Below, one piece after another: positions 2,912 through 62,859 of a stretch of 64,000 bases of DNA. Origin of the DNA: a virus; the IMG/VR virus record IMGVR_UViG_3300042362_000298, positions 4,313 to 68,312 of that record; one strand, given 5' to 3'. The number at the start of each line of letters is the position of its first letter. Positions within the stretch are counted from its first letter, which is position 1. Under the pieces are notes generated by a model that did no database searches, was not told the origin of the DNA, and saw only the letters and a list, made by a program, of their open reading frames with translations. The position numbers and the translations under genes are program-made.

Positions 2912-3589
2912 TTGGCATACGCCCCGTCCAAAATATTGTGCCATCATGAAGAGATGGATCAGCCTCAAGTCCGTCGACATCGCAAGTGGACAACACTTGA
3001 TCAGGTCACTGCAGAAGTCGCGGCAGCTTGCGGCTGTAGTTTGTATCAAATTGCAAAAATTTTACGTCGAACGCCTATTGGCGTGTCCTATCGACTCCAC
3101 GCAGAAAAAAATTGCAACCGCAAAGCAAGCCATGCTAAGTGGCAATCGCAAAACAGAGAAAAAATTTCAAAAGCTGCAAAAGCCTGGAAAGAGAACAACA
3201 AAGAAAGAAGAAAACAAGCAGACAAAGAATGGACACAAAATAATCCAGAAAAGGTAAGAGAAAAGGGCAGAAGAAGGCGTGCAAGGAAATACAGCGCCGT
3301 TCGAAATGCAATTATTGCAGTTACACATGAAGACATTGAACTATTAAAAGAAACTTTTAGCCAGAGTTGTGTTTATTGCGGTTCCCAAGAGAGGTTAACA
3401 ATTGATCACGTCATTCCATTGGCAAGGGGCGGAACACATGAGCTTAAAAATTTACTGCCGTGCTGTAAGTCTTGTAATTCCAGCAAAAATTGTTTACCTG
3501 TTCAATCTTGGTATCAATCGAAACCTTTCTTCAGTAAGCAGAGATGGGATGCAATTGTTAAATTTCATCCTTGGCTGGGAATCTCTTGA
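2912..3589 (+). CDS. HNH endonuclease
   Basis: CVYCG...TIDHVIPLARGG..H..NL..CCKSCNSSK; basic helical N-terminus; AT-richer than its neighbours; start uncertain. Confidence 0.9.
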   Translation: MAYAPSKILCHHEEMDQPQVRRHRKWTTLDQVTAEVAAACGCSLYQIAKILRRTPIGVSYRLHAEKNCNRKASHAKWQSQNREKISKAAKAWKENNKERRKQADKEWTQNNPEKVREKGRRRRARKYSAVRNAIIAVTHEDIELLKETFSQSCVYCGSQERLTIDHVIPLARGGTHELKNLLPCCKSCNSSKNCLPVQSWYQSKPFFSKQRWDAIVKFHPWLGIS

Positions 3590-3769: not shown

Positions 3770-3840
3770 TGGGACCATGGGAAGCCTTGGTCATTATTGT
3801 CCTTTTCATCTGCATCACCTATATCATCGCCACTACTTAG
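3769..3840 (+). CDS. 23-aa membrane peptide
   Basis: TGATG overlap; MGPWEALVIIVLFICITYIIATT. Confidence 0.35.
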   Translation: MGPWEALVIIVLFICITYIIATT

Positions 3841-3852
3841 AGAAAACAACTA

Positions 3853-4197
3853 ATGACTAACCAACAACACCCCATCACCCCACCGCCAGAGCTGGTGCAG
3901 CAGTGGTGGGAAGAAGCTGACCAGTACCAAGACGATCCGAAGACTTACTTCGACTACGTTGCCACCGAAGCCGCCCAATGGGGCGCCGATAAAGAGTTAC
4001 TAGCTTGTGGAAATTACCTTAAGCAGTGCGCTGCGTGGGAGGAAGAAGATGTAATTGAGTTTTATAATTATCGCCGCCCCAAGCCACCGAGCTTAAAGGA
4101 GCAGGCGTTAAAAGCATTAAATGATATTTCTATTGCTTCGTTTGAACAAGATGCAGCAAACACTATTCGCCAAGCTCTTGAATCCCTGCCCGATTAG
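3853..4197 (+). CDS. HPITPPPEL-family protein, paralog 1
   Basis: shares HPITPPPELVQQW, AAQWGADxEL and RRPKPPSLKEQAL blocks with ORFs at 18588 and 19044. Confidence 0.85.
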   Translation: MTNQQHPITPPPELVQQWWEEADQYQDDPKTYFDYVATEAAQWGADKELLACGNYLKQCAAWEEEDVIEFYNYRRPKPPSLKEQALKALNDISIASFEQDAANTIRQALESLPD

Positions 4198-4211
4198 TCA
4201 ACATCCCTTCT

Positions 4212-4370
4212 ATGTCTGCTCAACCACGGATCTTTACAGTTGACGAACTTGATGAGTTCTGCCTTTGGTGGTGGGGCTCAGACAATGACGAGCGTACAGT
4301 CACTGATGTAATTGAAAGCGGAAGCATGACTGCGTTTGCTGAAGCTTGTATTGCCCGCTGGGGCAAGTAG
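4212..4370 (+). CDS. small cassette protein (52 aa)
   Basis: MSAQPRIFTVDELDEF...FAEACIARWGK, bounded by TAGT-N7 sites. Confidence 0.6.
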   Translation: MSAQPRIFTVDELDEFCLWWWGSDNDERTVTDVIESGSMTAFAEACIARWGK

Positions 4371-4382
4371 TCCGATCAACTT

Positions 4383-4490
4383 ATGAAAAACCATTTTGTT
4401 GACATCACCAAAAAGGTGGCATCTGCGCTGTTTCTAGCGTTCTGCCTCTATCAGGCTTTTTTTGGCCACACAGGCTATTGCTACCCGTAG
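4383..4490 (+). CDS. small membrane peptide (35 aa)
   Basis: MKNHFVDITKKVASALFLAFCLYQAFFGHTGYCYP; ATG directly after a TAGT-N7-ACTT site. Confidence 0.45.
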   Translation: MKNHFVDITKKVASALFLAFCLYQAFFGHTGYCYP

Positions 4491-7335: not shown

Positions 7336-7595
7336 ATGTTTCCGAACTGCGCGAAATCCTTGCCAAGGCCGAAACCCAGCATGGCCCCGACATGCCCATT
7401 CTTCTCTGCTTTGAAGAAACGGCTATTGATGAGGGCTATGAAGAGGCTTCCACTGAAGGCATTAGCGATGTGCGAATTGTAGAAGATTGGCCTCTTCCTG
7501 GTACGAGCCTGACCACTTATGAAGGCGAAAAGCCCAAGAAGCTTGTCATTTTCTATGACAATCATTACAAGCTCGACTCGTCCATTGTCAAATGA
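7332..7595 (+). CDS. hypothetical protein, tandem paralog B
   Basis: ATGA overlaps at both ends. Confidence 0.7.
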   Translation: MNVSELREILAKAETQHGPDMPILLCFEETAIDEGYEEASTEGISDVRIVEDWPLPGTSLTTYEGEKPKKLVIFYDNHYKLDSSIVK

Positions 7596-8560
7596 ACCAC
7601 TCCTTCCTCACCTACGACCCTGCTAGTTTTGCTTCCATGACTCTTCCCGTGACTGCCGTGAACGAAGCCATGCTCACCGAGCGCATGCTTGGCCATTTTT
7701 CGCCCCTTGACATTTCTCCTGAAGCCTTTAAGAAAGCTTACGAGCTTCCCATTGGCGATCACGTTGAGAAGAACTACAAAGGGCTCTCCTATCTGTCTTG
7801 GCCTTTTGCCTTCCGCTACCTCAACGAGCAATTTCCTGGCGTGTTCGTTGCCTTTGAAGAAAAGGAATCTGGCTGGCCAGTATTTGGCCGAGATGGCTGC
7901 TGGCTGCTGCGTCCTTATTTGACGGACGGCATTAGACGCACTCCTGCGTTGGTGTTCCCCGTGATGGACAACAAGCACAACGCAGTGAAGGAGCTGGATG
8001 CTCGTCAAGTGAGCGACAACATCCAACGTGCCAGTGTTAAGTGCATTGCCACCTTCACCGGCCTTGGCCTCAAGCTTTATGCAGGTGAAGACATTCCTAA
8101 AGCCGATGAAGAAACAACGTCCAGGCTCCCGCTCCAACAGGAAAGCCCGAAGCCTGAAGCGCGGACTGTCGCGAAGGAACAAAAGGCTACAGACCCTGCT
8201 GCAGCATCTGGAGGCGATGGAACTTCTGCCTCTAATGGAGCCAGTGAGTTCGATGGCAAAGGAGCGCTTCTTAGCTTCTGCAAAGCCAATCCTCTCGGCA
8301 AAGCTGATGAGCGTGCAAGCCTGATGCTGGGCAAGAATGCGCTGCAGGCCCTTGGCTTGGCGAAAGGCGAAGACATTCAGGATGCTGAAATGTTTGCCAA
8401 TGTCATTAGCACCATGGTCACTTCATGGACCAAGGAAGAAGGCATCAAGATTACAAAGGTGGCAATGGCAAAAGAAATTGATTGCCTGCGTGCCGCTTGT
8501 CTTGATGGAGCTGATGCTGCCATTGAATGGGTCAAGGCGTATGTGGAGGGAAAAAAGTAG
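7592..8560 (+). CDS. Sak3/DUF1071-type single-strand annealing protein
   Basis: VEKNYKGLSYLSWPFA, PVMDNKHNA, IQRASVKCIATFTGLGLKLYAGED. Confidence 0.85.
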   Translation: MNHSFLTYDPASFASMTLPVTAVNEAMLTERMLGHFSPLDISPEAFKKAYELPIGDHVEKNYKGLSYLSWPFAFRYLNEQFPGVFVAFEEKESGWPVFGRDGCWLLRPYLTDGIRRTPALVFPVMDNKHNAVKELDARQVSDNIQRASVKCIATFTGLGLKLYAGEDIPKADEETTSRLPLQQESPKPEARTVAKEQKATDPAAASGGDGTSASNGASEFDGKGALLSFCKANPLGKADERASLMLGKNALQALGLAKGEDIQDAEMFANVISTMVTSWTKEEGIKITKVAMAKEIDCLRAACLDGADAAIEWVKAYVEGKK

Positions 8561-8887: not shown

Positions 8888-9015
8888 AAATCGTTCTCAT
8901 TTTCTTCTGCTTTTTGCCCATCACTGCTGCAGCTTGCAACCAGCCCATCATCAAAAACGGCTCCTGCCCGCTTGGCTACTACAGCTCTGGCGGCTATTGC
9001 ATTCCTAGTCGTTGA
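8884..9015 (+). CDS. small secreted Cys-containing peptide (43 aa)
   Basis: signal-like N-terminus then CNQPIIKNGSCPLGYYSSGGYCIP; ATGA overlap. Confidence 0.55.
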   Translation: MKIVLIFFCFLPITAAACNQPIIKNGSCPLGYYSSGGYCIPSR

Positions 9016-9055
9016 CGGTACAGTGGCTTGTCTAGACCTTTGTTTGGCAGCCACC

Positions 9056-9820
9056 GTGCCTTCGTTTGAGCAGTTTGAGCCGAAGCGCATCAGCCTCAAC
9101 GGCAAACGCCACTACATCAACGAAGGGTTTCCCAATGTGCCGGAGGGCATCGTCCTACCTTCCGTCACTACCTTCCTTTCGGCCATGGCTCCCGTAGCCA
9201 AGGTGATGGCCCTGATTAACTGGCGCAAGCGTGTGGGAGCTGATGAAGCTAATCGCCGCACCCGCCTTGCAGCCAATCGTGGCACCTGGATGCACGGTGT
9301 GCTGGAAGATCATTTCGATGGGGAAGATATTGAGCACCACCTTGACAAAGCTCCCGACTGGCGCCCCTACTTTGAAGCAGTAGAGCCATTTTTAGAGGGC
9401 ATTCAAGAGCCGCTGCTGGTGGAGAGTGCCGTGGCCTGGTATGACGCTGGCCTTGGCATTGGCTACTCAGGCACGCTCGACATGGTGGCGCAAATGACCG
9501 GCGGCGCCATTGCTCTGGTCGATTGGAAGACCAGCTACAAGGAGAAACCTGACTACCAACTGGCCGACTACAAGCGGCAGCTAGGCGCCTATTCCATGGC
9601 AGTAGAGCAAATGTACCAGCAACCCATTGATGAGGCATGGTGTGTTATTGCCTGCTACGACCCCGAAAACGAAGAAAGCGAGCCGTCATTGCAGCTCGTC
9701 CACCTTGATGGCTTTGAACTGATCAACCAGCAGCGCATCACGGCAGACACTGTTAAGAGATATTTCAAAGACCACTACCCAGGAGGCAAGGCATTTGCGC
9801 TCACCATGGATAGGGGGTAA
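9056..9820 (+). CDS. PD-(D/E)XK exonuclease
   Basis: PSVTT, RGTWMH, YSGTLD, LVDWKTS, QLGAY; next to the annealing protein. Confidence 0.9.
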   Translation: MPSFEQFEPKRISLNGKRHYINEGFPNVPEGIVLPSVTTFLSAMAPVAKVMALINWRKRVGADEANRRTRLAANRGTWMHGVLEDHFDGEDIEHHLDKAPDWRPYFEAVEPFLEGIQEPLLVESAVAWYDAGLGIGYSGTLDMVAQMTGGAIALVDWKTSYKEKPDYQLADYKRQLGAYSMAVEQMYQQPIDEAWCVIACYDPENEESEPSLQLVHLDGFELINQQRITADTVKRYFKDHYPGGKAFALTMDRG

Positions 9821-15781: not shown

Positions 15782-15842
15782 CAGTTTCTGTTTGCCGCTC
15801 AAGCTTACTCCTAAAACTCTCCACAATCAATAGTTACATCGT

Positions 15843-15950
15843 TTAGTCAATCATTTTCACAGGTGTGCCAGAAGAATCCTTATGCTGCACTTGCAGTTCA
15901 AAGGTGGCTCCTTGATAAATGGCAATATCGTGCTTGCCTAGAGTGATCAT
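15843..15950 (-). pseudogene. 3'-truncated remnant of a virion or tail beta-sandwich protein gene
   Basis: MITLGKHDIAIYQGATFELQVQHKDSSGTPV then a stop inside a TAAA-N7-ACTA site. Confidence 0.5.
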
Positions 15951-15978
15951 GGCGGAGCCTTGGCGCCTGTAAAATATT

Positions 15979-17211
15979 TCAGACAATTTCTCTCCACCCC
16001 AGCAGCCCTGTAGCCTGCTCGCTGGAGCTGCATTGAATAGTCAAAGCTATAACGTCGCTAGTACCGTCAATGGTACTGCCAAGTGCTAAGGCGAGTCCGC
16101 TTTCGGGGTCAAATTCAATACTACTGCGCGATGCCACCAAACCTCCTCCAATAACAGTGCCACCGGAAAAAGTGCCGCTGCTCATAACCTCCACATTTCC
16201 CCTGCCATTACTAGCAGCAGTCCATGCGCCACTGATGGTTGGATTAAGCCGTAGGCGCCATTGCGCGACAACATTAGAAGCTGGATTTCCGCCTATACTG
16301 GCATCAATTTGAGCGGGAATTATCACGTTATCGGTGCGACCGCTAGCAATGCGAATAGCTGCTACAAGCGTTTCCGCGCTGATAGCAGTAAATGTTTCCA
16401 CCCCTCGACCAGCTATATAGATGGGCCCCGTTGGCTGATAACCACCCTCGCTGACAACAGCAGTGCAAATCTGCCTTAGCGATGCATTAGCGGCGATGGA
16501 AGAAGAATTGTGAATTCGATAAGACACTGGCAATGTTGCCGATGTCATATAAACACTATCAATCGTGTTGGCATGGTTAAATTCGTGGCAATATTTAATT
16601 TCTCCGTCAACAACGAATCCACACCTTACGCGCCCCACGCCCAGCCATTCCAGGTCGGCAGTAAAAATATTAGCTTTTGAAAAATCTAAGGCAGAAAAAG
16701 TGTCAATATTCCACGACGACTGAGGGACAATGTTCTCTACCACTGTTCCTGTTGCTTTACTGCGAACAACGAACGAAATGGTCGTACCATTTGCTCTCAA
16801 CATTACACCATTGTTGTCGTTAAAAAAGCCAATCTCCTGCACCAAGCCATCCGTGGGAGCATTGCCAACGAAACTAGCCAGCACCATCAAGCTTTTGCCC
16901 GGCTGATAAGGCAGGCTCCGCTTGGAGCGCCGCAACACTGTATCTCCAGACGCAGTGGTGGTATTTAACTCTAAGGAGCTTTCATTTGGCAGATAAAGAG
17001 TGCTTCCGCTACCTACAGATTGTTCGTCCCACAGATCGGTGCGCTTACTGTATTGCAATGCCGAATCAAACAATGTGAACGGCTCGCTAAAGCGTTGTCT
17101 ACCAAAAGCATCAAGAGCGCCACTGTCGGGGCCCTTGGCGAGTATTTGCCCGCGATGATCAGCCTCAATATGGGTTTCAAACTGCTCACCACCGCGCACA
17201 ATTTGCCCCAT
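15979..17211 (-). CDS. virion structural protein (beta-rich, lectin-like)
   Basis: DAFGRQR..PFTLFDS, YQPGKSL, DLEWLGVGRVRCGF, SEGGY motifs; 410 aa. Confidence 0.7.
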   Translation of the reverse strand: MGQIVRGGEQFETHIEADHRGQILAKGPDSGALDAFGRQRFSEPFTLFDSALQYSKRTDLWDEQSVGSGSTLYLPNESSLELNTTTASGDTVLRRSKRSLPYQPGKSLMVLASFVGNAPTDGLVQEIGFFNDNNGVMLRANGTTISFVVRSKATGTVVENIVPQSSWNIDTFSALDFSKANIFTADLEWLGVGRVRCGFVVDGEIKYCHEFNHANTIDSVYMTSATLPVSYRIHNSSSIAANASLRQICTAVVSEGGYQPTGPIYIAGRGVETFTAISAETLVAAIRIASGRTDNVIIPAQIDASIGGNPASNVVAQWRLRLNPTISGAWTAASNGRGNVEVMSSGTFSGGTVIGGGLVASRSSIEFDPESGLALALGSTIDGTSDVIALTIQCSSSEQATGLLGWREIV

Positions 17212-17213
17212 GA

Positions 17214-17462
17214 CTAATCCCTAGCTTTCTCTCCATCGTAACAATAAGCCTGTTCGTATTCAGTGCCAATGCACAGCATGCCTTCAATAACACTTTGCGG
17301 GGCATAGCCGCATGCCACCATAAACTGAAAGTATGCCCTAGCCAGCGCAGTGGCCGTGTCGGCGCTGTAAGTGTGATTGATTTCTTGGTACGAACAAGTG
17401 TCGTGCATCACGCCATCGTCAGAAAAACGATGGGAAAAGGAAATTGAGTTGACGAAGGCCAT
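17214..17462 (-). CDS. hypothetical protein
   Basis: 82 aa; promoter TTGACG-N17-TAGCCT at 17484-17512. Confidence 0.65.
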   Translation of the reverse strand: MAFVNSISFSHRFSDDGVMHDTCSYQEINHTYSADTATALARAYFQFMVACGYAPQSVIEGMLCIGTEYEQAYCYDGEKARD

Positions 17463-17508
17463 AAAAGAAAAGAGGCAGCCCTTAGGCTACCTCCTGCTCT
17501 TGCCATCG

Positions 17509-17646
17509 TCAACCGCCCTGTCCACGCTTTAGCTTCCTTCCGTGACTTGGCTTGCTGTTTTTGCCTTGCCCCTGACGAGTGGTCTTGGGACGAGAAACGA
17601 TGATGCGCTTGCTACTGGAAGCTCCGGCTTTGCTTTTGACGGCCAC
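17509..17646 (-). CDS. small highly basic peptide (45 aa)
   Basis: MAVKSKAG...RPKTTRQGQGKNSKPSHGRKLKRGQGG. Confidence 0.6.
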   Translation of the reverse strand: MAVKSKAGASSSKRIIVSRPKTTRQGQGKNSKPSHGRKLKRGQGG

Positions 17647-17669
17647 GAGGACAATGCGAAAAGAAAAGC

Positions 17670-17915
17670 TTAGCTAGCCCAAGGCGTGCCAGTGCCTTTC
17701 GTGGGAGCCTTTTGCTGGTCAATTTGAGCCTGAAGAGCGCCCAGAATTTCAGCCACCTTCTCCTCTCCGAACTTGTCAAGAAGCCAGCCAAGTACGATCG
17801 CTTTCGTCAGATCGGCGTATGGAATGGCTTCGTCGCCTTCTGGAGCCTCGAGGCCGATACTGCCATAGGCACTGGAGCGGTAAGTGCCATCAAAGGCTTC
17901 AACCGTGTAGTGAAG
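17670..17915 (-). pseudogene. 5'-truncated tail-fibre-associated small protein gene
   Basis: open frame LHYTVEAFDGTYRSSAYGSIGLE...IPYADLT...APTKGTGTPWAS with no start at its 5' end (in-frame TAA at 17934-17936); begins inside a TAGT-N7-ACTA site. Confidence 0.7.
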
Positions 17916-17919
17916 GTGA

Positions 17920-18141
17920 CTACTGGGCTTCGGTTACAGGCTCACTGGCGTCGAGTTCTCTGGCAATTTCTTTGAGGTGTTCAGCGCAGCACATACCGTT
18001 CCAATCAAAATAGAATTGTTCTGCCACAGTACGAAGGGCGGCGGCAAGCATTTCAGCCTCTGTGACTTCGCAGTTATAAAGATCGGCCAAAGTGCCGTAG
18101 GCGTCCCAGACAGCTTGCGCTTGGGGTGAAAGTTCAGACAT
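17920..18141 (-). CDS. cassette protein (LSPQAQAV...AAALR family)
   Basis: 73 aa, flanked on both sides by perfect TAGT-N7-ACTA sites. Confidence 0.8.
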   Translation of the reverse strand: MSELSPQAQAVWDAYGTLADLYNCEVTEAEMLAAALRTVAEQFYFDWNGMCCAEHLKEIARELDASEPVTEAQ

Positions 18142-18155
18142 AGTAGTGGGAATGA

Positions 18156-18452
18156 CTAAGGGGTGTGATCAATCTCTTCAAGAGCTTCTGCAATGTACAG
18201 GAGCCGCGAACAACTGATAATTCCAGGGCTTTCTTGGAGTTGGTTGATTGCCTCCTTAAACGCAGCGGCAAGAACTGGACCATCGCAGATACCACGCTCA
18301 CAGGCGGAGATATCAAAAGCTCGAAAGATTTCGAGCGCTATTTTGGCGCGAGACTCTTTGCCCGCACGTTTTACCCAATCTTCGGCTTGAAACCCATCCA
18401 TGCAGTCAAGCCAAGGAGCGTCGTCTTTATCAGGGAGGTTGTGTTCAGTCAT
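18156..18452 (-). CDS. cassette protein
   Basis: 98 aa; LAAAF..AI and LL.IA..LE blocks resemble the neighbouring ORF. Confidence 0.7.
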   Translation of the reverse strand: MTEHNLPDKDDAPWLDCMDGFQAEDWVKRAGKESRAKIALEIFRAFDISACERGICDGPVLAAAFKEAINQLQESPGIISCSRLLYIAEALEEIDHTP

Positions 18453-18595
18453 TTATGAGGACCGATGCAAATGACGCGCTCGCCAATAACAATAATAACG
18501 GCAACCTCAATCCGAGGGATGTCACCACCAAAGCCAACGCCGAAAAACAATGTTTTGTCAAAATCTGCTTTGCGGATAGAAAACCACTTAGTCAT
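18449..18595 (-). CDS. small hypothetical protein (48 aa)
   Basis: overlaps both neighbours; MTKWFSIRKADFDK... Confidence 0.5.
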   Translation of the reverse strand: MTKWFSIRKADFDKTLFFGVGFGGDIPRIEVAVIIVIGERVICIGPHK

Positions 18596-18947
18596 CGAGC
18601 TGCTCCACGGCACGGCGAAGATCTTGCAGGATTTCAGGCAAGTAATGCCCATCCCGCTCCATCACTTCTAGATGCTTCAGGGATTGCTCCTTCAAGCTCG
18701 GCTGCTTAGGCTCGGGGCGGCGAGCGGCGCGGATGTAGCGAGCAAAGTCATAAGCATCCTCACCTGCGTCAATCTCAACCAGCCTTAGGCACGCCTTCAG
18801 CTCTTGGTCTGCGCCCCATTGGGCGGCGCGGGTGGCGATGTGCTGTTCATAAGCCCAGTGTTCATCGTTGTATGGCACGCCTGAAAGATTGGCGTCGTGC
18901 CCCCACTTTTCAACAAGTTCCAGTGGCACGGTGATGGGGTGGGTCAT
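18588..18947 (-). CDS. HPITPPPEL-family protein, paralog 2
   Basis: HPITVPLELV, AAQWGADQELKAC, RAARRP, PSLKEQ. Confidence 0.85.
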   Translation of the reverse strand: MTHPITVPLELVEKWGHDANLSGVPYNDEHWAYEQHIATRAAQWGADQELKACLRLVEIDAGEDAYDFARYIRAARRPEPKQPSLKEQSLKHLEVMERDGHYLPEILQDLRRAVEQLDD

Positions 18948-19043
18948 TGTGTCAACCTCCAACAATAAGAAAGGTGTGCTCGTTGAATGTCCTCCTTAAT
19001 CGCAAGTAAGTGCTTCTGACCAGTCATTGCTGCTGCTCGGAAG

Positions 19044-19397
19044 TCAGTCATCGAGTTGCTCCAGTGCTTTACGAACAATTGAAAAGTCGTTAATGTCCCA
19101 ACTTGGGTCTTCTGCTTTATTTAGCAGAGCTAGCGCTTGCTCTTTCAAGCTCGGCGGCTTAGGGCGGCGGGCGGCGCGGAGGGCTTCTGTTTGCCATAGC
19201 GCGGTTTTGGATTTAGTGCGAAGCCACTCGCAGCACGCCTCCAGCTCCTGGTCGGCGCCCCATTGGGCGGCATGGTGAGCAATGAATAGCTCGTAGCCCC
19301 AATTCTCGTCGTCGGAATTAAGAGGGCTGCTGGCTGCCCACTGCTGCACCAGCTCCGGCGGTGGGGTGATGGGATACCTGTAGTCTTCTTGGGTCAT
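19044..19397 (-). CDS. HPITPPPEL-family protein, paralog 3
   Basis: YPITPPPELVQQW, AAQWGADQELEAC, RAARRPKPPSLKEQAL. Confidence 0.85.
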   Translation of the reverse strand: MTQEDYRYPITPPPELVQQWAASSPLNSDDENWGYELFIAHHAAQWGADQELEACCEWLRTKSKTALWQTEALRAARRPKPPSLKEQALALLNKAEDPSWDINDFSIVRKALEQLDD

Positions 19398-19544
19398 GGT
19401 CTCCAGGGGATCGTGGCCGGGGCAGGGTGTTGACGCACCGCTGCTCCACCACACTACCATGTGCTACAGTGCTTCGGCTGACAAGGCACCGCAACGGTTG
19501 TGATATTCCGTTGCACGGGGGCAGGGGTGAGATCCTGCCCCTTT

Positions 19545-19688
19545 TTAATGCCGAGCAACACGGCGATACTCTTCAAGGAACTCCTCGCCCATCAACTCCA
19601 CCAGTTGCTCGTGGGTGACGTTGTTGATCAAGCAAAGGCTTTCCCTGAAGCGCCTCTCGTTTTCCTCCGCTGTGATTTCTTCAGGCAT
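19545..19688 (-). CDS. small hypothetical protein (47 aa)
   Basis: MPEEITAEENERRFRESLCLINNVTHEQLVELMGEEFLEEYRRVARH, directly after a cassette site. Confidence 0.55.
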   Translation of the reverse strand: MPEEITAEENERRFRESLCLINNVTHEQLVELMGEEFLEEYRRVARH

Positions 19689-19702
19689 AGTAACGAGTAG
19701 GA

Positions 19703-20767
19703 CTACGACGCCTCAAGGGCTGACAGCCGAGCTTCCATTGCTTCGATCTGCTCCTTTTGCCGCTTGATCAGGTTCAGTAGATGGGGCACGAAACGGTCGT
19801 ACTGAACGCCTTCGGGTTCGGGAACTTCAAGGGGAACATCTTTGGCTTCTCCGTTCTCGCCAACGACACGCTCGACTGTTTTCCAATGAACCAGACGAGG
19901 ATCAATCTGTGCAACTTCTTCTGCAATAAAACCCCACCAGCCCCAGGTTGCGTTGTCTTCGTTGCAAAGCGAACGATAATAAACTGGGCGGCAGTTTAAA
20001 ACGTTATCAGCGTATTGGTTTTCAAGTGTTTCTACATTTGTTTTGTACTTAATAGATGATGTCGACCGTCCAAGGTAACCAGATGAAGTAATAAATCCGT
20101 TTGCTGCAGATGCCGTCGTATTGTTGTAAGGAGATAGCGTGGAAAGTCCGGTGTAAATGGCTCCATCTGATCTAATAAACATATTTTGCGTCGGGCTGCT
20201 CGCTCCGTCGGCGGTCGTCGATAGTACAATCCTGCCCGGCATGTCGTTAGCGCCGGGGGTGCCATCTACAAAGGCTTCAATTCGCGCTGCTTCAACAAAC
20301 TCAGTGCCGTCTGATCCTTGGAATGACAGTGCGCCTACTTGATCATCTGCAATGACAACGGTTGTACCCCCAATAGAATTGGAGCGATGTTTTGCAAAGA
20401 TATGCCAAGGACCGCCTGCTCCTGCGACACCATAAATATGTCCCGCATAACGCTGGGCATTATTATTTGCCCCTTCAACTTGAACTAAAGCCGTCTCTGT
20501 TGAATTAAAGAAATTGCCACGCGCAGTAGACGTGCCAACTAAAAGTCTAGAACTCGAGTCAATGCGCATGGCTTCACTGCCACCCTCAGCAAACGCAATA
20601 GTGTCTGCTGCCGGAAAAAATATGCCGGTGTTGGGGTCGCTGGTTGGCTGTAGCGCTGGGGCTGATGCGGTGCCTGCTTGAAGCACCACGTTCCCGCTGC
20701 TGTCCAGCACGATGTTGTTGCTGGCCGAGCTGGGATGCTTGATGTTTGTGACGTTGATCGATGACAT
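19703..20767 (-). CDS. tail fibre with C-terminal S74 intramolecular chaperone
   Basis: TSSIKYKTNV...GFIAEEV...GVQYDRFVPHL...LEARL-type end; RIDSSSRLLVG fibre repeat. Confidence 0.9.
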   Translation of the reverse strand: MSSINVTNIKHPSSASNNIVLDSSGNVVLQAGTASAPALQPTSDPNTGIFFPAADTIAFAEGGSEAMRIDSSSRLLVGTSTARGNFFNSTETALVQVEGANNNAQRYAGHIYGVAGAGGPWHIFAKHRSNSIGGTTVVIADDQVGALSFQGSDGTEFVEAARIEAFVDGTPGANDMPGRIVLSTTADGASSPTQNMFIRSDGAIYTGLSTLSPYNNTTASAANGFITSSGYLGRSTSSIKYKTNVETLENQYADNVLNCRPVYYRSLCNEDNATWGWWGFIAEEVAQIDPRLVHWKTVERVVGENGEAKDVPLEVPEPEGVQYDRFVPHLLNLIKRQKEQIEAMEARLSALEAS

Positions 20768-20770
20768 GGC

Positions 20771-21052
20771 TCAAGCCTCCGACGGGTAGGGGAAACGGGC
20801 GCGGATGGCCTCCACTGCGGCGGTCCAGTCATCCATGCTGACTTCGCCGCGCTGCGCCTTGAAGAACAGCGGGTCCGCTTCGGCGGCATAGGCAGCGGCG
20901 CGTTGCTGCTGGGCTTGCATCTGAGCAGCCTTGGCCTCGACAGCCTGCCGGTCGTACTCGACGGGGTTGCCATCGGCGTCGAACGCTTCCTCGCCAACGG
21001 TGCGAACGACGTTGGGATGGAACGCGTGAATGGCAGAAGCGAAGTACATCAT
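20771..21052 (-). CDS. tail fibre assembly/chaperone protein
   Basis: RAAAYAAEADPLFFKAQRGE...W...IRARFPYP. Confidence 0.75.
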   Translation of the reverse strand: MMYFASAIHAFHPNVVRTVGEEAFDADGNPVEYDRQAVEAKAAQMQAQQQRAAAYAAEADPLFFKAQRGEVSMDDWTAAVEAIRARFPYPSEA

Positions 21053-21579
21053 GCTGCTACCTCCATCAAGGTGATGGTAGAAACGGCGCTATTTATTTGA
21101 ACACTAGAATTACTCGTATCGGAATTTAATTGTGTTTTATAAGTCACAGCAGAAGTTGTATTAGGGGAATCCAAATATTCAATAGATACAGAGCCAATAC
21201 GATTTGCTGTGGCTGTACCTGTATAGCCTGCCGTTAGGTCCATTACGGCTATCTGAGTAGAGGCACGCAAAAGCCTTAATCCAGCGTAATTGTCGTTTGT
21301 TTTTCCAACACCGTTTTGATGCACTGTTATCAAAATTTTGCTTGATGCTGATGTTGGCGTAATTGTTGCCGCCAGTGTAGTGTCAACATAAGTTGAGCTG
21401 GTTGCCGAAACGCCCGTCGAAGTCGTCTCATTCACCACCTGCAAAATGTTCCCCGCCCGATTCAAGCGGTCCAGCGTGCCGCCAGTGCCGGGCAGGGTGA
21501 AGGTCTGGTCGCCAGCAATGGCCGGAGCGTCAAGCTCGCTGTAGCCACTGGTGCTTCCGTTAAGCCTTAAAGGACTCAT
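21049..21579 (-). CDS. tail fibre module protein
   Basis: GNILQVV, ITPTSASSKILI, YLDSPNTTSAVTYK, STITLMEVAA. Confidence 0.8.
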   Translation of the reverse strand: MSPLRLNGSTSGYSELDAPAIAGDQTFTLPGTGGTLDRLNRAGNILQVVNETTSTGVSATSSTYVDTTLAATITPTSASSKILITVHQNGVGKTNDNYAGLRLLRASTQIAVMDLTAGYTGTATANRIGSVSIEYLDSPNTTSAVTYKTQLNSDTSNSSVQINSAVSTITLMEVAA

Positions 21580-21845
21580 GATGTCACCTCCTCGGTGGTA
21601 GCTGCGGCGTCTAATGCGGCCTGGTAAGCAGCGATCACCTCTGGCGTCCACAGTGCTGCGGCAACTGCTTGGAGTTCTTCGCAGTCGTCACTTACGTCAT
21701 CACCGGGGACGCGGCAATGGCGGTGATAAGTGCGACCGACTTCTGTGCCGTCCTTTTCAATCACATCTGCGCGGCGGCATTGGATGATCGAGTAGGGCGG
21801 GATGATTTCTAGCTTGTGCTCGTGGCGTTCAGTGAAAGTAGCCAT
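21576..21845 (-). CDS. tail fibre assembly protein
   Basis: IQCRRADVIEKDGTEVGRTYHRH...AVAAALWTPEVIAAY. Confidence 0.75.
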   Translation of the reverse strand: MATFTERHEHKLEIIPPYSIIQCRRADVIEKDGTEVGRTYHRHCRVPGDDVSDDCEELQAVAAALWTPEVIAAYQAALDAAATTEEVTS

Positions 21846-21906
21846 TAGGAATGTCCTCCAGACATAACGGGTTTAGGCGTAGTTTTGAGCCATTGCGGGC
21901 TTAAAA

Positions 21907-22599
21907 TTAAACAGACCAATAAGTGATCGACCACTGAAACGAAAAGTTTGCATCTGTCATGTCAGCAGAATTTAAATTTGCTGCAGTAGTAACACCACTA
22001 TTGTTTGAATATTTTTTTAGATCTATTGTGGATGTGTTTGGTTGAATTAATGCTCCCAGCGGAAAGCCGGAACCATCGAATATACTTGGATTACCAAGTA
22101 AATATCCTTGAAAAAAATTACCAATATTGGGGGTGGCAAAAGGAAGACCTGTCACAGTAACTGCGTTAGCACCAGAGCCAGCACTGCATCTTATTTGAGA
22201 ATACCCGACAAGCGTAACCTGATTGCCTACTTTTGTGTATCTTGCGACATTAGCTATAGTTGTAAAAGTTGCTCCGGTTGCATTAAACACAGGCGTCCAA
22301 GTTCCCTCCTCGTAATCATCCAGCGTATTTGCATTACTTGCTGCAACTGCTGTTGCCGGGAAGGTGATGCCGCCAGACAGTTCCAGTACGCCACCGTTGG
22401 CAGTAGCACTGGTCACTCCTACCAGTAAACGACCACTGTCGTCAAAGCGTGCTACTTCTGCTCCACCTTCGGCAAAAGCAATCGTGTCAGCCGCTGGAAA
22501 GAAAACACCAGTGTCACTGTCTCCCCCTTGGTAAGCAGGCGTAGAGGCTGATCCATCGACGCCACTGATGCCTGTTGAGCCGTTAATCGTTACTGACAT
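21907..22599 (-). CDS. tail fibre protein
   Basis: ANTLDDYEEGTWTP, YTKVGNQV, TGLPF. Confidence 0.85.
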   Translation of the reverse strand: MSVTINGSTGISGVDGSASTPAYQGGDSDTGVFFPAADTIAFAEGGAEVARFDDSGRLLVGVTSATANGGVLELSGGITFPATAVAASNANTLDDYEEGTWTPVFNATGATFTTIANVARYTKVGNQVTLVGYSQIRCSAGSGANAVTVTGLPFATPNIGNFFQGYLLGNPSIFDGSGFPLGALIQPNTSTIDLKKYSNNSGVTTAANLNSADMTDANFSFQWSITYWSV

Positions 22600-22646
22600 G
22601 GCTTACACCTCCTGAGCAGTGGTAGTGTCCGAGACTAGTTTTTCCA

Positions 22647-54158: not shown

Positions 54159-54287
54159 AGATCGGTCCTCAGCATGGCACATGCCAAGTTCAGACCGAAG
54201 GGGAGACCACGGCATTGAACCGCGAGTGAGAGCCCATCCCTTCTCCCAAAGGCCCCAGGTTTGAGCATCGTTGAGAGGCTTAGGGGC

Positions 54288-59615: not shown

Positions 59616-61469
59616 TTATTCGGCCCATTGAGTGGTGCTGAAAGCTGCCCGACCACCCCCGGCCAGGGGCTGCCATGCACCGACCAAAGGCTGAAGGCTG
59701 AAGGCTGCAGCCTCGGGCCCCCGGCCCCTGCTGGCCTTGGTGCGCAACAGCACAGCCACGCCGTCAAACCCTAGGGGCTGAGGCCCTGCAGGATCGGCCC
59801 AGCGGTGATCGGTGGCATCCCCATCAATGCACAGCAAGCGGGCCACGCTGTCCCCATCGCGCAGGATCAGTACGTCGGGCAGGGGCTGCCCCTTTGCAAA
59901 GCCTGCAGGCACAGCCAGCCGGAATCCTGCGGTGATGGCGGTCAGTGCTTGGGCAATGCCCCCCGGTCTATCAGCAGCCAGGGAGGCTGTAACGTCCCAT
60001 CCTGCCGATCGTTGGGCCTGCAGGCCCAGGGGGCCAGCTACAGGGGCCTTGCTGTACTCATACAGTCTGACGGTGCCTGCAGGGGCCAGGGCCAGGGCCT
60101 CAGCCAGGGTGATTCCTTGGCCAGGGGCTACGGGCAGCCCGTAACGACGGGCCAGGGCTTGGGCCTCTGCAGGGCTGACAGTGAAACGCCACAAGTGGAT
60201 GGGGCTGTCATCGGTGCCCCTAAGTCTGACAGCCAGGGGCAGCCCCTTTGCCTGGGCCTGCCGGTAAGCCCGCGCAATAGCCCACAGCACGGCCCGAGAG
60301 TAGACGGGGCCCCCGGCCAGCATGGCAAGCGTGCGACGGGCACGGGCTGCTGCCACGGTCACAGACAAACCCCCGTGGCCAGCCCAAGCCAGGCAGCCAG
60401 CCGCGCAGCCTTTGGAAGCCCAGGGGCATCCATTATGGGCCATGGCCAGGGCCAGGGTATCAGTACTGCTGGCCAGTTCAGCCAGACCAGGCACCCGCGA
60501 CCGTGGGGCTGTGGGGCCAGCCTCAGGTCCTGCAATGGCAGCAGCCAGGGAACGAGCGGGCAGATGGTGCAGGATCACGGGCCAGGCCAGGGCTACCCCC
60601 TTTGCAAGCTTGGCATTGGATGCCCCCACTGTCAGCAGCCCGTCAAGGCTGAGGCCAAACCTTTGGAGCAGGGCTGCCACGTCAGCAGGCAGGCGGGCAG
60701 GGGCCACGCTACGGGCCAGGGGGCCAGGGGCCACGCTACGGCCAGGGGCTGCAGGGGCAGGGGCTGCAGGCAGCCGCCCCGTGATCTCAGCCCCCACCTT
60801 TGCCAGCAGCCGCAAAGGGGCGCCCTGATCCACGGCCTCTAGGGCGGCCTCAGTCGCAGCCTGTCGCCAATCACGGCGGCCCTCAGCGGCCAGGGCTGCA
60901 GCAGACTCTCCCGGATCATCCCAGGCCACACGGCCACCACGGGCAGGATGGCGCCATTCTCTGCCCTGCTGCGGCTGCTGCTGCTGCTGGGAGTAGGTCA
61001 CAAAGGCGGGTAGCTCAGGGCTCAGATCCTCCCAGGCCATGGCCAGGGCCAGATCCTCCTGATCAGCCTGCAGGGCCTCAGGGCTCAGATCCTCCCAGGC
61101 AAGGGCCACCGTCAGATCGTCCTGGGCCTGCCGCACAAAGGCGGGTAACTCAGGGCCGGGGCCTGCAGGGGCAGGGGCTGCAGGGGCAGCGGCAGCGGCT
61201 GCAGCCTTGACGGCACGGGCACGGGCAGCGGCGGCATGATCGCGCAGCAGGGCAGCGGCCACGTCTGCCAGCGTCTGGCAGGGGGTGGCGCATGCACCGG
61301 GCAGCCAAACGTTCCATCCGTAGCGGCCCGCATTGTCCAGGCGGATCATGCGGCTGCCAATGGCACGGGCGGCGGCCTCAATGCGGGCGGCAGTGTAGCG
61401 GGGGCGGGGGGCCAGATAGGCGAGGCCCTCGGCTGCTGTAAGGGCGGGGGCGGGGGTGGTGGTGCGCAT
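59616..61469 (-). CDS. GP88-family (radical-SAM-like) protein with low-complexity N-terminal half
   Basis: SNAKLAK, CPWASKGCAAGCL, VRLRGTDD, YEYSK, IDGDATDHRWAD. Confidence 0.75.
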   Translation of the reverse strand: MRTTTPAPALTAAEGLAYLAPRPRYTAARIEAAARAIGSRMIRLDNAGRYGWNVWLPGACATPCQTLADVAAALLRDHAAAARARAVKAAAAAAAPAAPAPAGPGPELPAFVRQAQDDLTVALAWEDLSPEALQADQEDLALAMAWEDLSPELPAFVTYSQQQQQPQQGREWRHPARGGRVAWDDPGESAAALAAEGRRDWRQAATEAALEAVDQGAPLRLLAKVGAEITGRLPAAPAPAAPGRSVAPGPLARSVAPARLPADVAALLQRFGLSLDGLLTVGASNAKLAKGVALAWPVILHHLPARSLAAAIAGPEAGPTAPRSRVPGLAELASSTDTLALAMAHNGCPWASKGCAAGCLAWAGHGGLSVTVAAARARRTLAMLAGGPVYSRAVLWAIARAYRQAQAKGLPLAVRLRGTDDSPIHLWRFTVSPAEAQALARRYGLPVAPGQGITLAEALALAPAGTVRLYEYSKAPVAGPLGLQAQRSAGWDVTASLAADRPGGIAQALTAITAGFRLAVPAGFAKGQPLPDVLILRDGDSVARLLCIDGDATDHRWADPAGPQPLGFDGVAVLLRTKASRGRGPEAAAFSLQPLVGAWQPLAGGGRAAFSTTQWAE

Positions 61470-61712
61470 GACCTGGGGGGGTGAGTGGGCCCAGCTCTCG
61501 CCGGGATACCCCCATTAGAGGGCCTGCCCCCGTATCACGTCAACCAAAGGGGCAGGCTAGGGGGCCAGTTGCAAAGGTGGCCCACTAGCCCAGGACTGCA
61601 GGGGGCCAGAGATGGTAGGGGCTGCCGCTGCTGCTGCCCGTGATCGCCACCCCCCGTAGAAGTAACCGCGCAGGCGCACGCGCCTACCATGAAACAAGCG
61701 AGAATGGCGGCC

Positions 61713-61958
61713 TGATCAGCAGCGCTGATCATTGGCTCTGGTCCCATAGGCTCAGCTTGTCTGATCAGCTCAGCTTGTCATGCGGGCCACGGCTCATAGG
61801 CTCAGCTTGTCAGATAGGCGCAGCTTGTCAGAGGAGACGGTCAGATCAGCTCAGCTTGTCAGATAGGCTCAGTCTATGGGAGAGGGGCTGGCCCATAGGG
61901 CTGGCTTGTATGATCAGCCGGGCTGATCATTGGGGCGGGAATCATAGGACCAGCTTAT
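61713..61958. repeat. array of paired 15-bp ATAGG/ATCAG-N5-CTTGT/CTGAT sites, ~49-50 bp period
   Basis: sites start at 61715, 61746, 61764, 61796, 61814, 61845, 61863, 61895, 61913, 61944. Confidence 0.85.
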
Positions 61959-61960
61959 GT

Positions 61961-62089
61961 AGTACGTTTGTACTACTATGCGGCTATGCGCATAGGAGAA
62001 TAGTAGTACGCTTGTACCATAGTACGCCTGTACTATTGAGAACGATTCTCATTATCAGTAGTACGTTTGTACTATAGTACGTTTGTATC
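61961..62089. promoter_or_regulatory. five cyanobacterial LexA-type boxes (AGTAC-N3-TGTAC)
   Basis: at 61961, 62005, 62021, 62060 and 62076 (last degenerate); matches RGTACNNNDGTWCB. Confidence 0.7.
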
Positions 62090-62139
62090 ATTGAGAACGA
62101 TTCTCATTCTCACGGGGGGAAATGAGAACCATTCTTACT
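62035..62139. promoter_or_regulatory. three Fur-type boxes (A(T/A)TGAGAA-N3-TTCT(C/T)A)
   Basis: 19-bp near-palindromes at 62035, 62090, 62121. Confidence 0.6.
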
Positions 62140-62140
62140 A

Positions 62141-62209
62141 ATACCGAGCTGGCCGGGTCTTTTAGGCACCCAGCCGGGTCTTGATACCGAGCTGGCCGGG
62201 TCTTTTAGG
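62141..62209. repeat. 26-bp direct repeat with a third core copy
   Basis: ATACCGAGCTGGCCGGGTCTTTTAGG at 62141 and 62184; GCCGGGTCTT also at 62173. Confidence 0.85.
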
Positions 62210-62780: not shown

Positions 62781-62859
62781 GGCCAAACCTTCTCTTTGGT
62801 AGTGGTTAGAAACGGCGCGGGACTGGCATCTCGCGTCGTTTTGCCATGCTAACGCACAA

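What the first reader, a model, noticed from the sequence alone, without database searches (positions are those of the whole stretch)
15831..22637. Candidate phage gene-cassette shuffling system defined by 15-bp TAGT-N7-ACTA sites
Seen on the coding strand: perfect sites TAGT-CACCTTC-ACTA (17908-17922), TAGT-CATTCCC-ACTA (18144-18158), TAGT-CTCGGAC-ACTA (22623-22637); degenerate sites TAGT-CCTACTC-GTTA (19691), TAGA-CGCCGCA-GCTA (21599), TAAA-CGATGTA-ACTA (15831), plus three at 3.8-4.4 kb. About one perfect site is expected by chance in 64 kb; all those I found lie at gene or module boundaries. The left arm usually supplies the stop codon, the next ATG often follows within 2 nt, 8 of 9 spacers begin with C (polarity), and two resident genes are truncated at sites. 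Known: inverted arms around a 6-8 bp spacer is tyrosine-recombinase geometry, and gene-sized cassettes are integron-like. Unlike integrons or shufflons, the sites are minimal, the spacers differ and no recombinase is visible in the window. Inference: a site-specific cassette exchange system that diversifies receptor-binding and accessory genes.
Basis: partly seen in the sequence, partly recalled or inferred. Interest (0 to 1): 0.88.

Follow-up and report, generated by a model that had tools for sequence, protein, structure and literature searches.

The report
Conserved gene-junction motif of lake cyanophages
A short, one-directional DNA 'joint' that sits exactly between small accessory genes of viruses of lake cyanobacteria is real and marks places where genes were swapped, but nothing shows that a dedicated cut-and-paste enzyme acts on it.

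Summary
The three perfect TAGT-N7-ACTA sites exist. The palindrome is only part of the real feature. On the coding strand all three read TAGTC-N5-CACTAC. They belong to a wider, strand-specific gene-junction element, roughly AG|TAGTC-RYYWYC-ACTW. It occurs in small-gene arrays of S-CBS4-like and other freshwater cyanophages: at least 120 IMG/VR stretches, 181 strict copies against 9 for a reversed control in 1.73 Mb. In loci not chosen by the motif, 10 of 11 copies supply the upstream stop and 8 of 11 lie within 30 nt of the next ATG. Only 235 of 8803 TAGs combine both features. The joint links many unrelated upstream and downstream genes, flanks a tRNA gene, and homology often breaks at or inside it. 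Site B is a recent junction that removed the start of a DUF7936 gene at an 8-nt match. This genome has no tyrosine or serine recombinase. The inverted symmetry is not conserved and spacers differ. My best reading is an SD-less intercistronic linker that doubles as a short-homology exchange point. An integron-like system is not shown.

The parts
18144..18158 (-). Joint A. On the minus strand it reads TAGTC-ATTCC-CACTA. Its TAG is the stop of the 98-aa ORF, and the ATG of the 73-aa ORF follows 2 nt later.
   Evidence: The same joint plus 73-aa gene follows a different upstream gene in L004 and L006.
17908..17922 (-). Joint B. Its TAG is the stop of the 73-aa ORF. Its right half is supplied by the Leu-His-Tyr codons of the truncated DUF7936 gene.
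   Evidence: Other lake phages carry the same 15-mer as an ordinary joint in front of a phrog_32006-type gene (table 5c; L133, L088, L111). Contigs of runs X2 and X3 span the window's junction (table 8).
22623..22637 (-). Joint C. It is intergenic, 9 nt after the TAA of the 193-aa fibre-like ORF, and is followed by GGAGG and the ATG of the 230-aa ORF.
   Evidence: S-CBS4 has the same layout between gp058 and gp059.
19691..19705 (-). Joint D (TAGTC-CTACTC-GTTA). Its TAG is the stop of the 354-aa tail fibre, and the ATG of a 47-aa ORF follows 2 nt later.
   Evidence: The left half TAGTCCTACTC recurs in 13 copies with varying right ends.
4195..4214 (+). Joint of the wider type. TAGTC plus a pyrimidine-rich stretch plus CTTCT plus ATG, between a phrog_32006 paralog and a 52-aa ORF.
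4368..4385 (+). Joint of the wider type (TAGTC..ACTT then ATG), after the 52-aa ORF.
3838..3855 (+). Weak variant (TAGAG..ACTA then ATG) in front of the phrog_32006 paralog.
   Evidence: It lacks the TAGTC core.
17670..17906 (-). Truncated DUF7936 gene. It has no start codon and its first ~26 codons are missing.
   Evidence: 25 of 25 relatives are full length; PF25590, E 1.3e-34 for the L009 copy
17920..18141 (-). 73-aa cassette gene of the '..ELEAQ' family.
18156..18452 (-). 98-aa cassette gene with no family match.
18588..18965 (-). phrog_32006 paralog.
   Evidence: E 1.8e-17
19044..19460 (-). phrog_32006 paralog.
   Evidence: E 2.8e-30
3853..4197 (+). phrog_32006 paralog in the early-region array. 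The model is all-helical and has no PDB match.
19703..20767 (-). Tail fibre whose C-terminal part matches fibre families; it ends at joint D. The 'chaperone of endosialidase' label comes from annotations of related phages.
7592..8560 (+). Sak-type single-strand annealing protein. It is a candidate enzyme for short-homology exchange; this role is inferred.
   Evidence: PF06378, E 1.3e-17; 58% identity to S-CBS4 gp079
8972..9820 (+). PD-(D/E)XK exonuclease, partner of the annealase.
   Evidence: (56% identity to S-CBS4 gp075)
15831..15845 (-). I reject it as a joint. It lies next to a truncated gp051-like ORF (15843-15950).
21599..21613 (-). I reject it: it lies inside the 89-aa ORF with its TAG out of frame.

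Best explanation
The sites are copies of a strand-specific intercistronic joint found in small-gene arrays of freshwater cyanophages. Its consensus is about AG|TAGTC-RYYWYC-ACTW.

SHOWN:
- It overlaps the stop codon of the upstream cistron.
- It lies 0-9 nt before the next ATG.
- That interval almost never holds a Shine-Dalgarno-like word.
- It predicts no promoter, terminator or stable hairpin.
- It joins many unrelated gene pairs.
- It occurs in phage lineages whose capsid gene does not match this one.
- Homology between relatives often ends at or inside it.

INFERRED, step 1. On the polycistronic mRNA the joint gives the UAG stop plus a G-poor, unstructured leader. Ribosomes can then restart on the next AUG without an SD. 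In the same arrays the other common junction type is an ATGA overlap, which does the same job.

INFERRED, step 2. The joint is the only sequence shared by otherwise unrelated neighbours in co-infecting phages. It therefore becomes the crossover point for short- or micro-homology recombination. This genome's own Sak-type annealase and PD-(D/E)XK exonuclease could carry that out. The result is movement of small-gene and tRNA cassettes between contexts.

Site B is one such recent event. A bona fide joint recombined with a chance 8-nt match inside DUF7936 and removed the gene's start.
For: THE MOTIF IS REAL AND ORIENTED. There are 181 strict copies against 9 (reversed), 2 (N4), 0 (N6) and 4 (true palindrome) in 176 loci, 1.73 Mb. 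At least 120 IMG/VR stretches match the motif plus leader.

BOUNDARY ENRICHMENT. This comes from loci not chosen by the motif (54 sequences, 595 kb). Of 11 strict copies, 10 are in-frame stops of open frames of 40 or more codons, and 8 also have an ORF-starting ATG within 30 nt. For all TAGs the figures are 1621 and 235 of 8803.

NO SD. An SD-like 4-mer lies between stop and ATG in 8 of 166 joints, against 47 of 209 for control TAGs.

NO OTHER SIGNAL. None of 7 promoter-like and 12 terminator-like predictions falls on a site. Five of 6 folds are no better than shuffles. Other junctions in the same arrays are ATGA overlaps.

COMBINATORICS. There are 305 instances, 172 upstream clusters, 155 downstream clusters and 235 pairings. 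TAGTCACCTTC has 32 upstream and 52 downstream neighbour types in 70 contexts.

BREAKPOINTS. Pairs with the same left flank diverge at positions 6-7 (7 pairs), 12 (8) and 15-17 (15). Pairs with the same right flank diverge at 0 to -3 (32 pairs) and at 7-12 (11).

SITE B.

ENZYMES. Annealase and nuclease are present.

OTHER LINEAGES. Complete genomes G006 and G008 carry joints but give no match to this capsid protein. G002-G004 do match it.
Against: A tRNA gene is flanked by joints on both sides. Many joints are followed by hairpins and no ATG. Stop-restart coupling therefore cannot be the whole function.

Site C and the S-CBS4 copy do not overlap a stop and do have an SD.

Exchanges that fall inside a 15-nt element with only 4-5 nt of fixed arms are short even for annealase-driven recombination.

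The pair counts are not independent events, and 120 of the 176 loci were chosen by the motif.

No RNA data exist for these phages, so no expression role was observed. A tyrosine integrase lies next to such arrays in relatives.
Confidence: 0.45

Rival explanations
1. Dedicated site-specific cassette recombination. A recombinase cuts at the arm/spacer borders of the joint and moves gene plus joint units, as in an integron. Candidates are the 284-aa tyrosine integrase beside arrays in relatives, a host enzyme, or an HNH nuclease.
For: Cassette-like units, including a tRNA gene, are bounded by joints on both sides. Divergence points cluster at positions 0, 6-7, 12 and 15-17, which are the arm borders. 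Two recent junctions fall in the right half of joint B. A PF00589 integrase (E 3.2e-14) lies in the same hypervariable region of a 98%-identical relative. It gave 27 tblastn hit rows over 176 loci. Tandem half-joints occur in L098, L102 and L109.
Against: The own genome has no tyrosine or serine recombinase, yet it has 6 joints and a recent junction. Only 4 bp are symmetric, and the true palindrome is rare (4 against 181). ACTA is present in only 24 of 87 and 27 of 54 copies of the two commonest left halves. Spacers differ; by recall, tyrosine recombinases need matching overlap regions. The integrase has its own sigma70-like promoter and sits as ordinary cargo upstream of DUF7936. L009 carries the integrase but has no strict junction-type (TAGTC-N5-CACTA) joint in 16.9 kb; its one TAGT-N7-ACTA match lies inside a tail-fibre ORF.
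Confidence: 0.12
2. The joint is purely a signal read by host machinery or by a DNA/RNA-binding protein. It could be an endonucleolytic processing site that separates cistrons and releases the tRNA, or a stoperator-like or SAS-like protein-binding site. Under this reading the mosaic pattern reflects only ordinary illegitimate recombination plus selection to keep the signal intact.
For: It occurs next to a tRNA gene and in front of hairpins where no restart is needed. It keeps strict orientation with transcription. It appears across lineages that share hosts but do not share this capsid gene. The arms are conserved while the middle varies. The nearest analogues, SAS and stoperators, are such signals.
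Against: There are only 1-6 copies per genome, all in accessory arrays. SAS has 11-19 copies per genome. Exchanges in which both partners keep a whole joint but differ from position 6 or 12 onward need joint-by-joint recombination. No RNA evidence is available.
Confidence: 0.22
3. Chance plus shared descent. The three perfect sites are a coincidence, helped by tandem duplication of paralogous small genes that carried their junctions along.
For: The palindrome statistic alone is unremarkable after the fact. Eight of 20 TAGT-N7-ACTA hits in relatives are simply a conserved fibre coding motif. phrog_32006 is present in three paralogs in this genome.
Against: The strict motif outnumbers its controls 181 to 9 or fewer. 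It is strongly enriched at stop/start boundaries. It lies between unrelated genes in dozens of pairings and in phages with other capsid genes.
Confidence: 0.04

Closest known systems
PeSLs (promoter-early stem-loops) of T4-type phages: Arbiol et al. 2010, PMC2839356 (abstract and section 14 read); Comeau et al. 2014, PMC4122927 (abstract read)
   Same: Both are short conserved intergenic elements, from the upstream stop to the next start, concentrated in hyperplastic regions of small non-essential genes. Both serve as points of exchange between otherwise unrelated sequences.
   Different: PeSLs are composite sigma70 promoters plus terminator stem-loops with an SD, and mini-circles were shown physically. 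The joint here is 15-22 nt. It has no predicted promoter, terminator, stable fold or SD. No circles were seen, but only contigs could be laid.
Start-Associated Sequences (SAS) of Cluster K mycobacteriophages: Pope et al. 2011, PMC3203893 (passages read)
   Same: Both are asymmetric short repeats whose outer parts look symmetric (GGG-N7-CCC there, TAGT-N7-ACTA here). Both have one orientation, lie a few nt upstream of ATG starts of non-structural genes of different families, sometimes contain the upstream stop codon, and have unknown function.
   Different: SAS contains an SD core (AGGAG), has 11-19 copies per genome, and is confined to one phage cluster. The joint here lacks an SD, has 1-6 copies per genome, begins with the stop codon, also flanks a tRNA gene, and occurs in phages with non-matching capsid genes.
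Stoperators of Cluster A mycobacteriophages: PMC9283540 (search listing and start of abstract only)
   Same: Both are asymmetric short sites in one orientation relative to transcription, at gene ends.
   Different: Stoperators are numerous repressor-binding sites spread across the whole genome. Here there are few copies, confined to accessory arrays, and no binding protein is known.
Integron attC/attI cassettes and shufflons (features recalled, no paper read here)
   Same: Both have gene-sized, same-orientation, mostly promoterless units separated by a recurring site.
   Different: This genome has no integrase. The site is 15 nt, not a 57-141-nt folded attC. All copies are direct, so no inversion is possible. 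Crossover positions are not fixed to one point.
Linker or 'boundary' sequences of the modular theory of phage evolution (Susskind and Botstein; lambdoid boundary sequences; recalled, not read here)
   Same: Both are short conserved sequences between modules that would let homologous recombination reassort neighbours.
   Different: Those were proposed for lambdoid phages and rarely documented. Here the element is defined, oriented and counted across hundreds of junctions.

Membership tests
Integron | An IntI-type tyrosine recombinase encoded next to the array | tested here: not met
   The own genome (95% complete) has no PF00589 match at E up to 1. Relatives carry a 284-aa PF00589 protein, but IntI-specific features were not examined.
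Integron | attC sites: imperfect palindromes of roughly 57-141 nt that fold as single strands (size recalled) | tested here: not met
   The element is 15-22 nt. Folds of 46-51 nt around six joints are no better than shuffles in 5 of 6.
Integron | Same-orientation, mostly promoterless gene cassettes | tested here: met
   The arrays are co-oriented. No promoter-like site falls on or beside the joints in 15.3-23.4 kb.
Shufflon | Inverted copies of the site that allow DNA inversion by an Rci recombinase | tested here: not met
   All junction-type copies lie on the coding strand in one orientation. No recombinase is present.
Tyrosine-recombinase core site | Two inverted binding arms around a 6-8 bp overlap that is identical between partner sites (recalled) | tested here: not met
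   Symmetry stops at 4 bp: TAGTC..GACTA has 4 copies and TAGTC..CACTA has 181. The right arm is variable. At least 14 different spacers were seen.
PeSL | Sigma70-like promoter plus terminator stem-loop in the intergenic element | tested here: not met
PeSL | Acts as an exchange point between unrelated flanking genes | tested here: met
   This rests on comparative evidence only; mini-circles could not be tested with contigs.
SAS (Cluster K) | Asymmetric repeat 3-7 nt upstream of ATG, in one orientation, in front of genes of different families | tested here: met
   The distance from TAG to ATG peaks at 15, 17, 21 and 22 nt, which is 0-7 nt after the element. Gene families differ.
SAS (Cluster K) | Contains the SD core and occurs 11-19 times per genome | tested here: not met
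   An SD-like word occurs in 8 of 166 joints. There are 0-3 strict copies per complete genome and 6 of the wider type in the window.
Stoperator | Bound by the phage repressor; dozens of copies genome-wide | not testable with these tools
   Binding cannot be tested here. The copy number does not fit.

The most novel reading that the evidence does not exclude
The joints are the sites of a minimal, oriented cassette-exchange system that works across unrelated cyanophage lineages. In this reading, small accessory genes and even tRNA genes travel as 'gene plus 15-nt joint' units. An enzyme not yet tied to them cuts at the arm borders. Candidates are the small tyrosine integrase found beside arrays in relatives, one of the HNH nucleases next to the arrays, or a host recombinase. 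This would be a phage-borne analogue of integrons with a far smaller site.
Probability: 0.13. Interest if true: 0.9.

Novelty: new variant of a known kind. Interest (0 to 1): 0.6.

Why it matters
Phage genomes are mosaics, and it is still argued whether the seams arise at random or at preferred linkers. Here a defined, countable 15-nt element sits at hundreds of seams between unrelated small genes in abundant lake cyanophages, including lineages whose capsid gene does not match this one. That makes the old linker idea directly testable. S-CBS4, a cultured phage, carries one copy.

The element also points to a way of expressing SD-less genes in cyanophage operons. It marks the arrays of small, fast-turning-over accessory genes, which are likely host-interaction or counter-defence genes; that function is not shown here. 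Finally, it cautions against reading short inverted arms as recombinase sites.

Tried and rejected
T7-LIKE PROMOTER OR NTCA SITE. I considered these from recall on seeing CACTA. I dropped them: phrogs/Pfam scans of 35 ORFs named no RNA polymerase, though no polymerase family was searched for directly, and the spacing does not fit.

LINK TO THE 61.96-62.09 KB PALINDROMES. Five TAGTAC-N4-GTACTA palindromes share TAGT/ACTA ends. I rejected a link: the spacing is N8, not N7, and S-CBS4 keeps a joint but has no such palindrome.

STABLE RNA HAIRPIN. Rejected.

KNOWN RNA FAMILY. Rfam gave only abiF RNA at 54251-54287 and nothing at the joints.

PROMOTER/TERMINATOR CASSETTE. Rejected.

READS. No RNA holder was listed. 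Only Logan contigs of four lake metagenomes could be laid. No contig joined two joints, so circles and deletions could be neither seen nor excluded. The many joints at 18.7-19.4 kb reflect phrog_32006 paralogs of other phages.

PROPHAGE OR attB SEARCH. The integrase query found only 2 MAG contigs, probably phage contigs. This was uninformative.

FUNCTION OF THE COMMONEST CASSETTE GENE (phrog_32006). Pfam gave nothing. The Atlas gave only viral hypothetical clusters. The AlphaFold model has pLDDT 87.5 and five helices. No PDB match reached E below 2.3. There is no hint of a DNA enzyme.

16S rRNA COMPLEMENTARITY. Not tested, because I held no host rRNA sequence.

LITERATURE. Two searches found no paper on this motif: S-CBS4 plus cyanophage, and cyanophage plus intergenic plus gene cassette plus recombination. 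I saw listings only. Supplements are closed, so a mention there cannot be excluded.

One search was turned back by the schema because a confidence field was missing. The report was sent again with the field added.

Full report
WHAT THE WINDOW IS. The window is 64 kb of a 68.3-kb phage genome whose ends overlap. It is co-linear with Synechococcus siphovirus S-CBS4 almost throughout. Portal identity is 65% and major head protein identity 88%. The one large block without synteny is 15.4-23.3 kb, between the lysis genes and the conserved tail protein. The finding lies in this block, and genes there run on the minus strand.

THE OBSERVATION. Exactly three TAGT-N7-ACTA sites exist, at the stated coordinates. 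Shuffles expect 0.21. Taken only as a 4-bp palindrome this is not special after the fact. Among all 4-mer arms with spacers of 3-10 nt it ranks 9th of 2048, p about 0.002. With one mismatch the excess is weak: 14 matches against 7.9 expected.

The sites stand out for another reason. On the coding strand they share three further positions, TAGTC-N5-CACTAC. At 18158, 17922 and 19705 the TAG is the real stop of the upstream ORF. At 18141 and 19688 an ATG follows after 2 nt. Site C is different: it is intergenic, with a TAA 9 nt before it and a GGAGG plus ATG after it. The first lies inside an ORF and out of frame. The second lacks TAGTC.

RELATIVES. Fifty-three IMG/VR loci anchored on the endolysin hold 20 TAGT-N7-ACTA sites in 527 kb. 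Ten are TAGTC-N5-CACTA at stop/ATG junctions on the tail-gene strand. Eight are a conserved coding motif inside tail-fibre genes, which shows the palindrome can arise for unrelated reasons. Two are others. S-CBS4 has one copy, between gp058 and gp059, laid out like site C.

Over all 176 loci (1.73 Mb) the strict motif occurs 181 times. The controls give 9 (reversed), 2 (N4 spacer), 0 (N6 spacer) and 4 (true palindrome TAGTC..GACTA). The element is therefore real, oriented and asymmetric.

THE INVERTED REPEAT IS NOT THE CONSERVED FEATURE. The commonest left half, TAGTCACCTTC, is followed by ACTA in 24 of 87 copies. Elsewhere it is followed by TCTA, TTTA, CCTA, GTTA and others. TAGTCGCTTCC is followed by ACTA in 27 of 54 copies and ACTT in 18. 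A profile of 302 TAGTC stop contexts gives about C-N-A-G | TAGTC | R-Y-Y-W-Y-C | A-C-T-W. The window has 69 TAGTC pentamers. Only six have this junction layout: 4195 and 4368 on the plus strand, and 17922, 18158, 19705 and 22637 on the minus strand. All six lie in the two small-gene arrays or the fibre block.

BOUNDARY ENRICHMENT, CONTROLLED FOR TAG STOPS. I used sequences not chosen by the motif (54 sequences, 595 kb). Ten of 11 strict copies are in-frame stops of open frames of 40 or more codons. Eight of the 11 also have an ORF-starting ATG within 30 nt. Among all 8803 TAGs, 1621 are such stops and 235 have both features. Over all loci, only 8 of 166 joints with a nearby ATG have an SD-like 4-mer in between, against 47 of 209 control TAGs.

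WHAT THE JOINT IS NOT. No promoter-like or terminator-like prediction falls on a site. Five of six local RNA folds are no better than shuffles. Rfam finds nothing there. The genome has no PF00589 or PF00239 match, while the controls matched.

CASSETTE-LIKE BEHAVIOUR. The genes between joints are small families that recur in arrays. They include phrog_32006 (three paralogs here), an '..ELEAQ' family (the 73-aa gene) and an '..ARWGK' family. The arrays lie beside the fibres in some genomes and in early regions in others.

The same joint type sits between very many partners. There are 305 instances, 172 upstream clusters, 155 downstream clusters and 235 pairings. TAGTCACCTTC alone has 32 upstream and 52 downstream neighbour types in 70 contexts. 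TAGTCATTACC has 43 upstream types but nearly always the same downstream leader and phrog_32006 gene.

In L165, L177 and L084 a tRNA gene has a joint 9 nt before it and another 8 nt after it. Complete genomes G006 (93 kb) and G008 (86 kb) carry joints but give no match to this phage's capsid protein. The same query matches G002-G004 at 87-91%.

WHERE HOMOLOGY BREAKS. Alignments of 20 loci to the window end at 17912-17916, which is joint B. I then compared pairs of junctions across all loci. Pairs with at least 95% identical left flanks and unrelated right flanks first diverge at positions 6-7 (7 pairs), 12 (8), 15-17 (15) or later (19). Pairs with identical right flanks diverge at 0 to -3 (32 pairs), at 7-12 (11) or further upstream (6).

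Both partners in these pairs still carry a whole joint. Divergence from position 6 or 12 onward therefore means joint-by-joint exchange. These pair counts are not independent events, and most loci were motif-chosen.

SITE B IN DETAIL. All 25 relatives found have a full-length DUF7936 gene (PF25590). Its codons Leu-His-Tyr read CTTCACTAC. The window keeps the gene only from those codons on. In front of them sits the end of the 73-aa gene. In L004 that same gene end (98.8% identical) is followed by a joint with TCTA, 190 nt of spacer and a full DUF7936 gene. In other lake phages the exact 15-mer of site B is an ordinary joint in front of a phrog_32006-type gene (table 5c; L133, L088 and L111).

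The window's DUF7936 part is 98-99% identical to L009, L010 and L042. Its 73-aa gene is L004-like. So two lineages recombined at an 8-nt identity made of the right half of a joint. The junction is real in nature: contigs of runs X2 (no differences) and X3 span it (table 8). The other end of the 5-kb block that differs from L009 lies at 23037, inside a fibre gene and not at site C.

THE INTEGRASE IN RELATIVES. L009 is 98% identical to the window up to 17915. In place of window 17.9-23.0 kb it carries a 645-aa fibre, an HNH-like ORF (my reading of the translation; Pfam found no family), a 77-aa gene and a 284-aa PF00589 integrase directly upstream of DUF7936. The integrase gave 27 tblastn hit rows over 176 loci. 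It has its own TTGACA-type promoter, often placed right after a TAGTC joint, and looks like one more cargo gene. A scan of bacterial genomes found only two MAG contigs. This keeps the recombinase idea open but gives it no direct support.

READING. I take the joint to be an intercistronic linker. It supplies the stop and an SD-less, G-poor, unstructured leader for restart on the next ATG. ATGA overlaps are the alternative junction in the same arrays. Because it is the only sequence shared by unrelated neighbours, it is also where short-homology recombination reassorts cassettes. This genome encodes a Sak annealase (PF06378, E 1.3e-17), a PD-(D/E)XK nuclease and three HNH nucleases, one directly upstream of the 3.8-kb array.

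Both functional steps are inferred. The tRNA case and the joints followed by hairpins show that translation cannot be the whole story. An RNA-processing or protein-binding role remains a serious rival.

COMPARISON WITH KNOWN SYSTEMS. The closest analogues are PeSLs of T4-type phages and the SAS of Cluster K mycobacteriophages. PeSLs are conserved intergenic cassettes that mediate modular shuffling, but they are promoter plus stem-loop composites. SAS are asymmetric, look symmetric at the ends, lie just upstream of ATG and have unknown function, but they contain an SD and are many per genome. The joint fails the defining features of integrons, shufflons and tyrosine-recombinase core sites that could be tested. 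Two literature searches found no description of it; I saw listings only.

VERDICT. It is unsupported on a site-specific recombinase and on receptor-gene diversification. I rate it a new variant of a known kind, with interest 0.6.

Noticed in passing
window 61700-62220: This is a dense non-coding repeat region. It holds five 16-17-bp palindromes (TAGTAC-N4-GTACTA type), three TGAGAAC-N-ATTCTCA palindromes, about seven copies of a ~20-nt unit and two 37-nt repeats. GTAC-N4-GTAC is the most over-represented arm pair in the window (6 copies against 0.16 expected). It looks like an origin or operator cluster. It lies next to an HNH-domain ORF (62205-63005) and a 67% G+C ORF.
   Followed up: partly
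L009:11279-12133 (also L042, L018, L023, L029-L035 and others): A 284-aa tyrosine integrase (PF00589, E 3.2e-14) with its own sigma70-like promoter sits directly upstream of DUF7936 in many relatives. It is absent from the window's genome. No attP or attB was identified.
   Followed up: partly
L165:2167-2238, L084:7237-7308, L177:2636-2707: A 72-nt tRNA gene, called Leu(CAA) by ARAGORN, lies inside a small-gene array. It has a junction motif 9 nt upstream and another 8 nt downstream.
   Followed up: partly
window 15843-15950 (-): The gp051-like ORF is truncated after about 35 codons. The full length is about 113 aa in S-CBS4, L038, L052 and L054. The 98%-identical relatives share the truncation.
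   Followed up: partly
window 54251-54287 (-): Rfam match to abiF RNA (RF03085): 48.2 bits against a gathering score of 37.
   Followed up: no
window 18568-19623: Summed contig depth in three other lake metagenomes rises to 260-390 over the phrog_32006 paralogs, against about 5 elsewhere. This small gene family is carried by many co-occurring phages.
   Followed up: no
L098, L102, L109: Two copies of the left half-joint TAGTCACCTTC stand 13 nt apart, followed by a long hairpin. In other loci the second copy forms the 5' arm of that hairpin.
   Followed up: no
window 59616-61469 (-): A 617-aa ORF in a 67% G+C island, in a genome of about 50% G+C. It matches PF17338 (GP88) and phrog_1617, both of unknown function.
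   Followed up: no
window 2912-3589 (+): An HNH endonuclease lies directly upstream of the 3.8-4.5 kb array. In L109, L120, L127 and L097, related ORFs ending '..CLPVT' run straight into a joint.
   Followed up: no
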